DNA of 64,000 nt from Deltaproteobacteria bacterium. Its GTDB lineage: Bacteria; UBA10199; SBBF01. This document shows, piece by piece, positions 62,568 to 63,833 of the stretch. Made by a program: the position numbers and the translations under genes. The stretch lies in the NCBI GenBank assembly GCA_016183175.1, contig JACPFC010000016.1:11932-75931 (forward strand), read 5' to 3'. Numbering within the stretch: position 1 is the stretch's first letter; every line of letters begins with the position of its first letter. The notes under the pieces are model-generated. The model was not told the DNA's origin. It ran no database searches and saw only the letters and a list, made by a program, of their open reading frames with translations.

Positions 62568-63833
62568 ATGTCAATGACACCATCCAAGATATCACACACC
62601 ATTTTATGGTTTGTGTTTTGCGTCCTGATATCGGGCCTGTTTCCCCTTCGATCGGCCCAGGCGCTTCCCTCATGGGCGCGCCGTTATAACGCCGACTGTT
62701 CCATGTGCCATACCATGATGCCGCAACTCAATCCCATAGGCCATCAGTTCCGTCGCCTGGGCTACAGGATGCCCGAGGAGTTTGACAACAAGGAGGTCCA
62801 GTTCTCGTGGGACGATCTGGCCAAGTTCACCAATTACTTTGCGGCGCGGGGACGGGCGCGAGCCACGGTGAACAAACAATCACCGGCCAAAATTGATTTT
62901 GATTTTGAGCAACATGACGTCACCCTTTTCTACGGCGGGCCGGTTACGCGGAATATTGCCTACTTCTTTGAGATGCCCTTTGAGCCGGAAAACGAGTTTG
63001 CCGAGCTGGAGGTGGGGCAAATCCAGCTTGCCTTCGGCCACTCGGACAGTTTCTTTTTCACCCGCATGGGCCAGTTTCACCAGTTTTCACGGGTTGGATA
63101 CGGCGGGCTGGATCGCCCCATCGGTCTTAACAATGCCCGCATGTTTGACGTGCGGGTGAACGGCTTCAGGCCGCGCCATGACGGTTTGGGAGTCGAGGCG
63201 GGATGGTCCAACGGTAATTTTACGGGCCTTCTCCAGTTTACGAGCGGCATTGAGGCAACAGGCGGTAGCGTGCTGGACAACGAAGACCCGAACAACGACA
63301 AGGATATGGCGTTATTGCTGGAATATCTGATTCCCAACCACAATGCGAGCGTTTCCCTGTTGTATGTTTATGGAAGGGCCCCAACGCCCCAGAATGATGC
63401 GGGGGCCGACGTGGCGGGCGCCGGTCCCACACGGTATCACCGGTTTTATCTCTTTGGCGACTATACCTTCGAGAAAATCGGCCTTAAACCGATCATTGGC
63501 TTTTCCCTGGGGATCGACAACCAGACTATCAGCGGCATCGGAACTGCCACGGCGGCCCTGATTTCTGCCGACAACAGCCTCTCCTGGTTTTCGTTTCTGG
63601 AACTGGACAAGAGCATCACCGACAACCTGTATCTGTTGGGTCGTTTTGATTACGACGATGTGACCAACAAGGCGGAGGGGGCGGCCAATACCAGTAAAAC
63701 ATGGGCGGGCACGGCCGGACTGGTATGGCAGTTCCAGAGATACATGCGTTTTTCCGTGGAATATAAGGTGGCCGACAGCCAGGGACAGCATCCGGCTCAC
63801 GCTTTTACGACGGAAGCCCAGCTCGTTTTCTAG
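62568..63833 (+). CDS. Cyc2-like fused monoheme cytochrome c / outer-membrane beta-barrel candidate
   Basis: RBS aaggaga; signal peptide; single CSMCH heme motif about 15 residues after the predicted cleavage site; beta-strand-rich sequence ending ...AQLVF (C-terminal Phe); the listed ORF starts upstream at 62388. Confidence 0.45.
   Translation: MSMTPSKISHTILWFVFCVLISGLFPLRSAQALPSWARRYNADCSMCHTMMPQLNPIGHQFRRLGYRMPEEFDNKEVQFSWDDLAKFTNYFAARGRARATVNKQSPAKIDFDFEQHDVTLFYGGPVTRNIAYFFEMPFEPENEFAELEVGQIQLAFGHSDSFFFTRMGQFHQFSRVGYGGLDRPIGLNNARMFDVRVNGFRPRHDGLGVEAGWSNGNFTGLLQFTSGIEATGGSVLDNEDPNNDKDMALLLEYLIPNHNASVSLLYVYGRAPTPQNDAGADVAGAGPTRYHRFYLFGDYTFEKIGLKPIIGFSLGIDNQTISGIGTATAALISADNSLSWFSFLELDKSITDNLYLLGRFDYDDVTNKAEGAANTSKTWAGTAGLVWQFQRYMRFSVEYKVADSQGQHPAHAFTTEAQLVF

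What the first reader, a model, noticed from the sequence alone, without database searches (positions are those of the whole stretch)
62568..63833. Candidate Cyc2-like fused cytochrome-porin (iron oxidation / extracellular electron transfer)
The protein has a signal peptide. A single CXXCH heme-binding motif (CSMCH) sits within about 15 residues of the predicted mature N-terminus. About 400 residues of alternating beta-strand-like sequence follow, ending in a C-terminal Phe. This matches the architecture of Cyc2-type outer-membrane monoheme cytochrome-porins.
Basis: partly seen in the sequence, partly recalled or inferred. Interest (0 to 1): 0.65.

Follow-up and report, generated by a model that had tools for sequence, protein, structure and literature searches.

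The report
Divergent Cyc2-type fused cytochrome-porin gene
This gene encodes an outer-membrane pore with a single heme-binding segment fused to its front end, a divergent member of the known Cyc2 family that iron-oxidising bacteria use to take electrons from dissolved iron; it is a solid but unsurprising find in an uncultured groundwater bacterium.

Summary
Window 62568-63833 (+) is an intact 421-codon ORF with four features:
- a Sec-type signal peptide ending AQA;
- one CXXCH (CSMCH, aa 44-48), 12 residues into the predicted mature protein;
- a confidently predicted 16-stranded beta-barrel (AlphaFold2 pLDDT 82, pTM 0.80);
- a C-terminal Phe.

CXXCH is invariant in all 125 aligned full-length relatives. 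It is flanked by ALPSWARRY-3 aa-CSMCH-3 aa-PQL. This is a conservative variant (F>W, K/Q>R) of the published Cyc2-defining motif AXPXFAR[Q/K][T/Y]...CXXCH...PXL.

The clade's profile aligns over its full length (hhalign E 2.8e-79) with proteins that carry the exact motif. In relatives from several phyla the gene sits next to small periplasmic monoheme cytochromes c. In the 69%-identical orthologue it heads a cluster of cytochromes, a Rieske/cytochrome b complex and an ACIII-like complex.

Most likely it is an outer-membrane electron conduit. Fe(II) oxidation is the leading role but is unproven, and the direction of flow and the substrate are open. I could not compare it with the biochemically validated Cyc2 proteins or score it with the FeGenie HMMs.

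Verdict: a new, slightly atypical member of a known kind, of modest interest.

The parts
62438..62459 (.). Perfect 22-bp palindrome TCGCATGACGG|CCGTCATGCGA, about 20 nt upstream of the -35-like hexamer. Candidate operator; function unknown.
   Evidence: About 7e-5 expected by chance in 300 nt (own estimate). Not found upstream of the orthologues in L001, L003 or L005.
62479..62508 (+). Sigma-70-like promoter match (TTGACC, 18 nt, TATTTT). Weak evidence only.
   Evidence: 9 of 12 matches. The number of such sites found equals the shuffle expectation.
62521..62542 (.). Inverted repeat CGATAACCG-ACTA-CGGTTATCG between the promoter-like site and the RBS. Candidate operator.
   Evidence: The resemblance of GATAAC...GTTATC to Fur-box ends is from my own knowledge and was not tested.
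62563..62566 (+). GGAG ribosome-binding site. It lies 7 nt before the ATG at 62574 and 1 nt before the ATG at 62568.
   Evidence: Sequence read.
62568..63833 (+). Cyc2-like fused cytochrome-porin ORF of 421 codons plus a stop. The probable true start is 62574.
62568..62663 (+). Sec signal peptide, aa 1-32. Predicted signal peptidase I cleavage after A30-Q31-A32.
   Evidence: Read from the sequence. The hydrophobic N-terminus followed by A-x-A is conserved in the homologues. No predictor was run.
62661..62687 (+). A32-L-P-S-W-A-R-R-Y40. Conservative variant of the Cyc2 signature AXPXFAR[Q/K][T/Y].
   Evidence: Motif from PMC8406198. Column counts among 125 relatives: A 114, P 103, F 61 / W 60, A 98, R 119, K 68 / R 41 / Q 9, Y 105.
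62697..62711 (+). CSMCH c-type heme attachment site. His48 is the proximal ligand and is His16 of the predicted mature protein.
   Evidence: Invariant in 125 of 125 relatives. A published A. ferrooxidans Cyc2 model also has the heme His at mature position 16.
62721..62729 (+). P52-Q-L54, the PXL motif. The proline is 4 residues after His48.
   Evidence: Motif from PMC8406198. P in 111 of 125 and L in 124 of 125 relatives.
62838..63827 (+). 16-stranded outer-membrane beta-barrel, aa 91-420. It ends in the beta-signal-like ...TEAQLVF.
   Evidence: AlphaFold2 DSSP strands and pLDDT of 80-94 over most of the barrel. Foldseek matches to OmpT, PorB, OprP and OmpF, E 2e-11 to 1e-8.
63876..63914 (+). 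Intrinsic-terminator-like hairpin with a 13-pair stem (8 G-C pairs) and a 3-nt loop, followed by CTCTTCTTTT.
63927..64000 (+). Start of the next gene on the same strand, cut by the window end. Its N-terminus VKTNISIAVFVLFFLAPVSAVMSD looks like a signal peptide. It may be the small periplasmic cytochrome c found at this position in orthologues.
   Evidence: In L001, L003 and L046 the next gene is a monoheme cytochrome c of about 95 aa. The identity of the window's own gene is not shown.

Best explanation
The gene encodes a Cyc2-family fused monoheme cytochrome-porin.

**Proposed mechanism**
1. The precursor is exported by Sec and cleaved after A32.
2. The cytochrome c maturation system attaches heme covalently to C44 and C47, with H48 as axial ligand.
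3. The C-terminal roughly 330 residues are inserted by BAM as a 16-stranded outer-membrane barrel.
4. The short N-terminal heme segment then sits at or inside the periplasmic mouth of the barrel. A small dissolved redox species entering the pore can exchange one electron with the heme there.
5. The heme passes the electron to a soluble periplasmic monoheme cytochrome c, and from there to the inner-membrane respiratory chain.

The most likely substrate and direction is oxidation of dissolved Fe2+.

**Shown here**
- The architecture and the conserved heme site.
- Homology to proteins that carry the Cyc2 signature.
- Recurrent linkage to periplasmic cytochromes c in relatives.

**Inferred**
- Heme attachment and outer-membrane location.
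- Position of the heme relative to the pore.
- Substrate and direction of electron flow.

**Sub-confidences**
- Fused cytochrome-porin of the Cyc2 superfamily: about 0.9.
- Outer-membrane electron conduit: about 0.75.
- Physiological Fe(II) oxidase: about 0.45.
For: **Architecture**
- The ORF, signal peptide, single CXXCH and C-terminal Phe are all present.
- AlphaFold2 predicts a 16-strand barrel with pLDDT 82.4 and pTM 0.80.
- Foldseek matches 16-strand porins, including OprP 2O4V at E 2e-10 and TM 0.57.

**Cyc2 signature**
- The published signature is AXPXFAR[Q/K][T/Y], CXXCH and PXL. The published screens are length of at least 365 aa and a 16-strand porin.
- The window protein has ALPSWARRY-NAD-CSMCH-TMM-PQL, at the same spacing as relatives with the exact motif.

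**Homology**
- phmmer finds 1362 cluster representatives at E<=1e-3.
- Of the proteins fetched, every one whose N-terminal region is present carries the motif block, with F or W at the aromatic position.
- The clade profile against 29 exact-motif proteins gives hhalign probability 100, E 2.8e-79, over 386 columns.
- The profile against the FARQTG-type group (Ralstonia, Cupriavidus and others) gives probability 98.2, E 4.9e-14. This covers the cytochrome segment plus the first two strands.
- The cytochrome segment is 46% identical to distant relatives and the porin 22%. This is the conservation pattern published for Cyc2.

**Gene neighbourhood in relatives**
- Orthologue locus L001 (69% identity) reads as follows: cyc2-like, two monoheme cytochromes c, 8-heme and 5-heme cytochromes, Rieske, cytochrome b, then molybdopterin/FeS/NrfD (ACIII-like).
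- Of 64 cyc2-like genes in fetched loci, 27 have a small monoheme ORF within 700 nt and 41 have any CXXCH ORF within 700 nt. The background is 3 small monoheme ORFs in 327 kb. Pfam confirms these ORFs as class I cytochromes c.
- The 52-56% identical orthologues lie next to ccmABC and CcmH/G-like genes, and one lies next to a VIT1 Fe/Mn transporter.
Against: - The strict published filter PXFAR[Q/K][T/Y] is failed at two positions (W36, R39).
- There is no direct comparison with a biochemically validated Cyc2 (PV-1, A. ferrooxidans) or Cyt572, and no FeGenie score. Searches aimed at retrieving them returned only unnamed proteins or proteins named just 'cytochrome C'.
- The heme-bearing residues 26-47 have pLDDT below 50, so the heme position is not modelled.
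- In this window the gene is followed by a strong terminator, and the downstream gene is cut off. Its upstream neighbours are a toxin-antitoxin pair, a hemY-like gene, holA and leuS. The local context itself says nothing about respiration.
- No other cytochrome gene lies in the 64 kb.
- The family's authors warn that function in homologues distant from characterised Cyc2 is uncertain.
- Relatives occur in lineages not known as iron oxidisers, such as Gemmatimonadota and Mn-oxidising Manganitrophaceae.
Confidence: 0.75

Rival explanations
1. The architecture is the same, but the physiological job is different. The protein might oxidise another dissolved donor such as Mn(II). It might take up electrons from minerals, humics or cathodes. 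Or it might run outward, passing respiratory electrons from quinol:cytochrome c oxidoreductases through periplasmic cytochrome c to an extracellular acceptor such as Fe(III).
For: - A 28%-identical relative sits in a Candidatus Manganitrophaceae MAG beside a small cytochrome c (L012). Cyc2 is a published Mn(II)-oxidation candidate in that family (PMC9040806).
- The Gemmatimonadota literature states that oxidation and reduction cannot be told apart from Cyc2 annotation.
- The L001 cluster has a Rieske/cytochrome b complex and ACIII, which are quinol oxidising. That arrangement fits either direction.
- Keffer et al. allow additional functions for Cyc2.
Against: - All three biochemically tested family members oxidise Fe(II).
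- No evidence specific to Mn or to reduction was found here.
- A single heme in a narrow 16-strand pore is a poor fit for solid acceptors (argument from PMC8406198).
Confidence: 0.2
2. It is an ordinary diffusion porin of the OprO/OprP or general-porin type. On this reading the CXXCH is incidental or non-functional.
For: - There is a weak Pfam BBP2_2 hit (E 0.0015, below cutoff).
- The structural neighbours are plain porins.
- Some exact-motif relatives carry precomputed PF07396 Porin_O_P hits.
Against: - C44, C47 and H48 are invariant in 125 of 125 relatives. The surrounding 40 residues are the best-conserved part of the protein, at 46% identity against 22% for the barrel.
- The chance expectation is 0.007 CXXCH per 421 aa.
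- Linkage to cytochrome c and Ccm genes is about 30-fold above background.
Confidence: 0.02
3. It is a heme-binding outer-membrane protein with a non-respiratory role, such as redox or iron sensing or heme/iron uptake. It would not be an electron conduit.
For: - Two perfect palindromes lie upstream, one with Fur-box-like ends. That resemblance comes from my own knowledge and was not tested.
- A VIT1 transporter lies beside one orthologue.
- The gene stands alone with its own terminator in this window.
Against: - A CXXCH site with covalent heme is typical of electron carriers, not of heme transporters.
- The gene repeatedly lies next to soluble cytochromes c and a cytochrome b-c fusion.
- There is no TonB-dependent or plug-domain architecture.
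Confidence: 0.03

Closest known systems
Cyc2 fused cytochrome-porins (Cyc2PV-1 of Mariprofundus ferrooxydans; Cyc2 of Acidithiobacillus ferrooxidans), as defined in Keffer et al. 2021, PMC8406198
   Same: - Signal peptide and a single N-terminal CXXCH.
- PXL motif with its proline 4 residues after the heme His.
- Signature block directly after the signal-peptide cleavage site, with the heme His at mature position 16. This matches the A. ferrooxidans model.
- About 420 aa with a 16-strand barrel and OprP-like fold.
- Cytochrome segment more conserved than the porin.
- A small periplasmic cytochrome c gene next door in orthologues, as in cyc2-cyc1.
   Different: - The signature reads PSWARRY instead of PXFAR[Q/K][T/Y], so it would be dropped by the strict published filter.
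- The host is an uncultured groundwater 'Deltaproteobacteria' MAG, not a known iron oxidiser.
- No rusticyanin or cox operon is in view.
Cyt572 of Leptospirillum (Cyc2 Cluster 3 representative)
   Same: It has the same general fused monoheme cytochrome-porin idea.
   Different: Cyt572 has an unusual heme and sits on a very long branch. No sequence comparison was made here.
FARQTG-type Cyc2 homologues of Ralstonia, Cupriavidus and Methylocystis, annotated 'cytochrome C' or hypothetical
   Same: The cytochrome segment and the first two strands align (hhalign probability 97-98, E 5.7e-12 to 4.9e-14). The Methylocystis gene is followed by three c-type cytochrome genes.
   Different: The rest of the barrel is not alignable. 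The signature is FARQTG rather than WARRY.
Phosphate-selective porins OprP/OprO and general 16-strand porins (OmpF, PorB, OmpT)
   Same: Barrel fold and strand number. Foldseek gives E 2e-11 to 2e-10, query-normalised TM 0.50-0.57 and target-normalised TM 0.58-0.70 for the ranks 1-6 discussed here (OmpT, PorB, OprP); other porins among the 50 listed rows range lower.
   Different: There is no detectable sequence relationship. These porins lack the N-terminal heme segment.
Porin-cytochrome complexes (MtrCAB, MtoAB/PioAB, PCC)
   Same: Outer-membrane electron conduits that combine a barrel with c-type heme.
   Different: Those complexes have separate polypeptides, 26-strand barrels and deca- or dodecaheme cytochromes. 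Here there is one polypeptide, 16 strands and one heme.

Membership tests
Cyc2 fused cytochrome-porin family (Keffer et al. 2021; FeGenie) | N-terminal signal peptide | tested here: met
   Read from the sequence: K7, hydrophobic aa 11-27, AQA at 30-32. The pattern is conserved in homologues. No SignalP run was available.
Cyc2 fused cytochrome-porin family (Keffer et al. 2021; FeGenie) | Single CXXCH heme-binding motif near the N-terminus | tested here: met
   One CSMCH at aa 44-48. Invariant in 125 of 125 relatives.
Cyc2 fused cytochrome-porin family (Keffer et al. 2021; FeGenie) | AXPXFAR[Q/K][T/Y] motif just upstream of CXXCH (used as the hard filter PXFAR[Q/K][T/Y]) | tested here: inconclusive
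   - The window has ALPSWARRY. Five of the 7 specified positions match, and the other two are conservative changes (F>W, K/Q>R). The literal filter is therefore failed.
- The spacing is the same as in exact-motif relatives.
- F and W split 61:60, and K/R/Q split 68:41:9, among 125 full-length relatives.
- The clade is homologous over its full length to exact-motif proteins (E 2.8e-79).
Cyc2 fused cytochrome-porin family (Keffer et al. 2021; FeGenie) | PXL motif 4 residues downstream of CXXCH | tested here: met
   H48-T-M-M-P52-Q-L54. P in 111 of 125 and L in 124 of 125 relatives.
Cyc2 fused cytochrome-porin family (Keffer et al. 2021; FeGenie) | Length of at least 365 aa | tested here: met
   421 aa, or 419 from the likely start.
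Cyc2 fused cytochrome-porin family (Keffer et al. 2021; FeGenie) | C-terminal 16-stranded beta-barrel porin with OprO/OprP-like structure | tested here: met
   AlphaFold2 predicts 16 long strands at aa 91-420, pLDDT 82.4, pTM 0.80. Foldseek matches OprP 2O4V at E 2.2e-10 and TM 0.57, along with other 16-strand porins.
Cyc2 fused cytochrome-porin family (Keffer et al. 2021; FeGenie) | Cytochrome segment more conserved than porin segment | tested here: met
   Identity to 105 distant relatives is 46% for aa 33-76 and 22% for aa 90-421.
Cyc2 fused cytochrome-porin family (Keffer et al. 2021; FeGenie) | Score above cutoff with a FeGenie Cyc2 cluster HMM, and placement in the published Cyc2 tree | not testable with these tools
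   The HMMs and the figshare alignment are not available here. Pfam and NCBIfam have no Cyc2 model, and there were no significant hits.
Cyc2 fused cytochrome-porin family (Keffer et al. 2021; FeGenie) | Significant similarity to a biochemically validated member (Cyc2PV-1, A. ferrooxidans Cyc2, Cyt572) | not tested
Cyc2 fused cytochrome-porin family (Keffer et al. 2021; FeGenie) | Covalent heme and Fe(II)-oxidising activity | not testable with these tools
   This needs expression, heme staining, an Fe(II) assay and redox titration.
Cyc2 fused cytochrome-porin family (Keffer et al. 2021; FeGenie) | Neighbouring periplasmic cytochrome c partner (cyc2-cyc1-like arrangement). This is supportive rather than defining. 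| tested here: inconclusive
   - In the window the downstream gene starts at 63927 with a signal-peptide-like sequence but is cut at 64000.
- In orthologues L001, L003 and L046 the downstream gene is a monoheme cytochrome c.
- In 27 of 64 related loci a small monoheme ORF lies within 700 nt.
Phosphate-selective porin O/P (Pfam PF07396) | Sequence match to the family model | tested here: not met
   There is no PF07396 hit for the window protein or for any of the 28 clade members. The resemblance is at fold level only.
Porin-cytochrome complexes (MtrAB, MtoAB, PCC) | 26-strand barrel with a separate multiheme cytochrome | tested here: not met
   The protein has 16 strands and one heme on the same polypeptide.

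The most novel reading that the evidence does not exclude
The W-type (PxWAR[R/K]Y) proteins make up about half of this protein's nearest relatives. They occur in groundwater 'Deltaproteobacteria', Nitrospirota including Manganitrophaceae, Gemmatimonadota and Acidobacteriota. They could form a functionally distinct branch of the Cyc2 superfamily that the strict published motif filter has left out.

That branch would be wired to its own partners, a small class I cytochrome c and a cytochrome b-cytochrome c fusion. It might handle a substrate or direction other than aerobic Fe(II) oxidation, such as Mn(II) oxidation or outward electron transfer.
Probability: 0.15. Interest if true: 0.55.

Novelty: new member of a known kind. 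Interest (0 to 1): 0.3.

Why it matters
Cyc2 is the most widely used genetic marker for microbial iron oxidation. If this protein works like Cyc2, an uncultured groundwater lineage that also carries a type III secretion system can exchange electrons with dissolved iron or a similar metal. That would add to the list of subsurface iron cyclers.

There is also a practical point. The protein and about half of its nearest relatives have W instead of F in the family's signature, and often R instead of K or Q. Surveys that apply the literal motif filter would miss this branch. The finding does not change the understanding of the mechanism.

Tried and rejected
- **Library scans.** Pfam, NCBIfam and PDB sequence searches with the protein gave nothing significant. 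The same held for the PDB profile search and the Pfam scan of the clade alignment. There is no curated model and no solved relative.
- **Retrieving validated Cyc2 sequences.**
  - A profile search with 29 exact-motif proteins returned only unnamed metagenome proteins or proteins labelled 'hypothetical'.
  - A profile search with FARQTG-type proteins returned Cupriavidus, Polaromonas and Gemmatimonadales 'cytochrome C' but no Acidithiobacillus in the 120 listed.
  - Cluster look-ups of ten NCBI-sourced hits gave no useful names.
  - A full-text search for motif strings in papers found nothing relevant.
- **Extending the window downstream.**
  - The exact NCBI protein is not on record in the contig index.
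  - The MAG is not among the species-representative genomes.
  - The first metagenome scan found nothing.
- **Rfam.** A scan of 61600-64000 matched only the terminator hairpin, as a sub-threshold chance hit.
- **Chance CXXCH in a plain porin.** Considered and rejected on conservation and synteny.
- **PCC/Mtr-type complex.** Considered and rejected on strand number and heme count.
- **His171 as distal heme ligand or metal site.** H171 is invariant in the close clade but present in only 78 of 125 wider relatives. No model coordinates were available, so this is left open.
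Full report
**1. Observation**

Window 62568-63833 (+) is an uninterrupted ORF of 421 codons plus a stop.

- **N-terminus.** The sequence MSMTPSKISHTILWFVFCVLISGLFPLRSAQA has the parts of a Sec signal peptide. These are a basic residue, a 17-residue hydrophobic core and A-Q-A. There is no lipobox.
- **Heme motif.** Exactly one CXXCH follows (C44-S-M-C-H48).
- **C-terminus.** The protein ends ...TEAQLVF.
- **Start codon.** The GGAG at 62563-62566 lies 1 nt from the ATG at 62568 and 7 nt from the ATG at 62574, so the second ATG is the more likely start. NCBI's annotation of the identical MAG protein (HYU99_02125, 'Deltaproteobacteria bacterium', 406 aa) uses a later start.
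- **Chance.** The six-frame translation of all 64 kb contains only two CXXCH, which gives 0.007 expected per 421 aa. The motif is therefore not a chance feature, and its conservation settles the point.

**2. Conservation and the family**

- A word-indexed search found 28 relatives, most of them unnamed metagenome proteins. In their alignment the CXXCH is present in every sequence that has its N-terminus.
- An exhaustive phmmer search of 1.8 billion cluster representatives found 1362 at E<=1e-3 and 148 at E<=1e-10.
- I fetched the proteins. Each of them with an intact N-terminus carries the same block, A-x-P-x-[F/W]-A-R-[K/R/Q]-Y-3 aa-CxxCH-3-5 aa-P-x-L-N-x-x-G.
- Keffer et al. 2021 (PMC8406198) define Cyc2 by exactly this block. 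It is an AXPXFAR[Q/K][T/Y] motif before the CXXCH and a PXL motif 4 residues after it. They call the first motif unique to Cyc2.
- The window protein reads A32-L-P-S-W-A-R-R-Y40 / C44SMCH48 / P52-Q-L54. It matches at five of the seven specified positions. The other two are conservative substitutions (F>W, K/Q>R).
- In a 125-sequence alignment of full-length relatives the aromatic position is F in 61 and W in 60. The basic position is K in 68, R in 41 and Q in 9. C44, C47, H48 and G58 are invariant.
- If the signal peptide is cleaved after A32, which is the 'A' of the motif, the heme histidine is residue 16 of the mature protein. A published A. ferrooxidans Cyc2 model has the heme His at the same position.

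**3. Homology beyond the motif**

- The profile of the window's clade (A1) aligns with a profile of 29 relatives that satisfy the literal filter PxFAR[QK][TY] (A2). The result is probability 100 and E 2.8e-79 over 386 columns, covering both cytochrome and barrel.
- A tblastn search of plasmids hit the Ralstonia solanacearum megaplasmid (E 7e-6) and a Methylocystis plasmid.
- These hits encode FARQTG-type fused proteins. Ralstonia is one of the genera Keffer et al. list among Cyc2 homologues. The Methylocystis gene is followed by three c-type cytochrome genes.
- Against these proteins, and against a 30-sequence profile of their group, A1 aligns at probability 97-98 and E 5.7e-12 to 4.9e-14. The alignment covers only the cytochrome segment and the first two strands.
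- Identity to 105 distant relatives is 46% in the cytochrome segment and 22% in the barrel. This reproduces the published property that the cytochrome part is the conserved part.
- Published inter-cluster identities among accepted Cyc2 proteins are only 16-23%. The divergence seen here is within the family's known range.

**4. Structure**

- AlphaFold2 on the 28-sequence alignment gives mean pLDDT 82.4 and pTM 0.80. It predicts 16 long antiparallel strands between residues 91 and 420, with short helices at 56-85.
- Residues 26-47, which bear the heme site, have pLDDT below 50. This is expected when the heme is absent from the prediction.
- Foldseek against the PDB returns 16-stranded porins. 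These include OmpT and PorB. OprP 2O4V matches at E 2.2e-10 with the highest query TM-score, 0.57. OmpF is also among them. OprP and OprO are the templates reported for Cyc2.
- There is no sequence-level relative in the PDB, Pfam or NCBIfam. Only a sub-threshold BBP2_2 porin hit appears at the C-terminus.

**5. Context**

In the window:
- Upstream lie leuS, holA, a hemY-like oxidase gene interrupted by an in-frame TAA, and a Phd/PIN toxin-antitoxin pair.
- Downstream there is a strong terminator-like hairpin (63876-63904, 13 pairs, followed by a T-rich tail).
- From 63927 a new gene begins with a signal-peptide-like sequence, but the window end cuts it off.
- No other CXXCH-bearing ORF lies in the window.

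The window itself therefore gives no functional context. The relatives do.
- **69%-identical orthologue (L001, 1.35-Mb contig).** The gene is followed at 17-40 nt by two monoheme class I cytochromes c. Next come 8-heme and 5-heme cytochromes, a Rieske protein, another 5-heme cytochrome and cytochrome b. A molybdopterin/FeS/NrfD set typical of Alternative Complex III closes the cluster.
- **L003 (57% identity) and L046 (54% identity).** The next gene is again a small cytochrome c.
- **L005 (56%) and L047 (52%).** The neighbours are cytochrome c maturation genes: ccmABC in L005 and CcmH/CcmG-like genes in L047. L005 also has a VIT1 Fe/Mn transporter.
- **Gemmatimonadota loci.** The gene lies between a cytochrome b-cytochrome c fusion and a small cytochrome c.
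- **Tally.** I counted 64 cyc2-like genes with at least 600 nt on both flanks. Of these, 27 have a small monoheme ORF within 700 nt and 41 have any CXXCH ORF within 700 nt. The background is 3 small monoheme ORFs in 327 kb of the same loci, about 0.013 per equivalent span.

This matches the cyc2-cyc1 arrangement of Acidithiobacillus. It also matches the Cyc2/ACIII model for Mariprofundus.

**6. Mechanism**

The best-supported reading is a one-polypeptide outer-membrane electron conduit.
1. The protein is exported by Sec and cleaved at AQA.
2. Heme is attached covalently at C44 and C47, with H48 as axial ligand.
3. BAM inserts the 16-strand barrel.
4. The short heme segment sits at or in the periplasmic mouth of the pore. 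It exchanges single electrons with a small dissolved species that enters from outside.
5. The heme hands the electron to a soluble class I cytochrome c.

**What is shown and what is inferred**
- The architecture, the heme-site conservation, the family relationship and the gene linkage in relatives are shown by the results above.
- Heme attachment, localisation and heme placement are inferred from what is established for the family.
- The substrate is inferred. Fe2+ is the only substrate demonstrated for any family member.
- The family's authors caution that function is uncertain for homologues far from the characterised ones.
- A relative occurs in Mn(II)-oxidising Manganitrophaceae, where Cyc2 is a Mn-oxidation candidate.
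- Authors working on Gemmatimonadota note that oxidation and reduction cannot be separated from Cyc2 annotation.

My confidences are about 0.9 for 'Cyc2-superfamily fused cytochrome-porin', about 0.75 for 'outer-membrane electron conduit' and about 0.45 for 'Fe(II) oxidase in vivo'.

**7. Membership and novelty**

- All structural criteria of the family are met.
- The literal sequence filter is missed by two conservative substitutions.
- I could not run the FeGenie HMMs. I could not obtain the validated Cyc2 sequences for a direct test.
- I therefore file the protein as a divergent, W-type member of the Cyc2 superfamily. This is a new member of a known kind.
- The fused cytochrome-porin idea, its wide distribution in MAGs and its linkage to periplasmic cytochromes are all published. 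A specialist would not be surprised.
- The useful detail is that W-type proteins are about as common as F-type among this protein's relatives. Studies that apply the strict motif would filter them out.

**8. Other things seen**

- An injectisome-type type III secretion cluster at roughly 4.6-23 kb.
- The interrupted hemY-like gene.
- Two perfect palindromes in the 250-nt region upstream of the cyc2-like gene.
- Tandem or paired cyc2-like genes in some Gemmatimonadota loci.

Noticed in passing
window 62438-62459 and 62521-62542: Two perfect inverted repeats lie in the 250-nt region upstream of the cyc2-like gene. One is a 22-bp palindrome, TCGCATGACGG|CCGTCATGCGA, just upstream of the -35-like hexamer. 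The other has 9-nt arms, CGATAACCG/CGGTTATCG, with a 4-nt spacer, and lies between the -10-like hexamer and the RBS. The second has Fur-box-like ends (my own recollection, untested). Neither is conserved upstream of the orthologues in L001, L003 or L005.
   Followed up: partly
window 60309-61637 (+): A HemY/protoporphyrinogen-oxidase-like flavin amine oxidase gene is split by a single in-frame TAA at 60861-60863. The two halves match Pfam PF01593 positions 1-186 and 196-419. It is either a pseudogene or an assembly error.
   Followed up: partly
window ~4656-22790 (+): A non-flagellar type III secretion (injectisome-type) cluster. It includes a YscD-like FHA/PEGA protein, a YscJ lipoprotein, an EscN-type ATPase, a FliM/SctQ-like protein, a FliP/SctR protein and probably SctS/T. 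This is unusual company for a putative metal-oxidising groundwater bacterium.
   Followed up: partly
window 61664-62317 (+): A Phd/YefM antitoxin and PIN-domain toxin pair lies immediately upstream of the cyc2-like gene. A second small pair at 56369-56842 looks HicAB-like by eye.
   Followed up: partly
window 50466-55316 (+): A three-gene set resembling PrkA / YeaH / SpoVR, judged by eye from the translations. It was not checked against a family library.
   Followed up: no
L001 11298-21257: In the 69%-identical orthologue's genome the cyc2-like gene heads a roughly 10-kb respiratory cluster. It holds two monoheme cytochromes c, 8-heme and 5-heme cytochromes, Rieske, cytochrome b, and then an ACIII-like set (multiheme, molybdopterin, FeS, NrfD). 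Crp/Fnr-type regulators lie just upstream.
   Followed up: partly
L005 7807-11977; L047 downstream of 3748: Orthologues at 52-56% identity sit next to cytochrome c maturation genes. L005 has ccmA/B/C on the divergent strand, and L047 has CcmH/CcmG-like genes. L005 also sits next to a VIT1-family Fe/Mn transporter.
   Followed up: partly
L028 8542-11185; L032 9896-13021: Some Gemmatimonadota carry two cyc2-like genes side by side. L028 has a tandem pair. L032 has a W-type gene and, 0.5 kb away on the other strand, a FARQTG-type gene. This suggests the two types are not redundant.
   Followed up: no
L007 11464-12162; also L006 1383-2102 and L013 1045-1749: In Nitrospirota loci a conserved membrane protein of about 235 aa with one CXXCH follows the cyc2-like gene, directly or after the small cytochrome c. 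It starts MTL.TLxLPxKVLFT and has no Pfam match.
   Followed up: no
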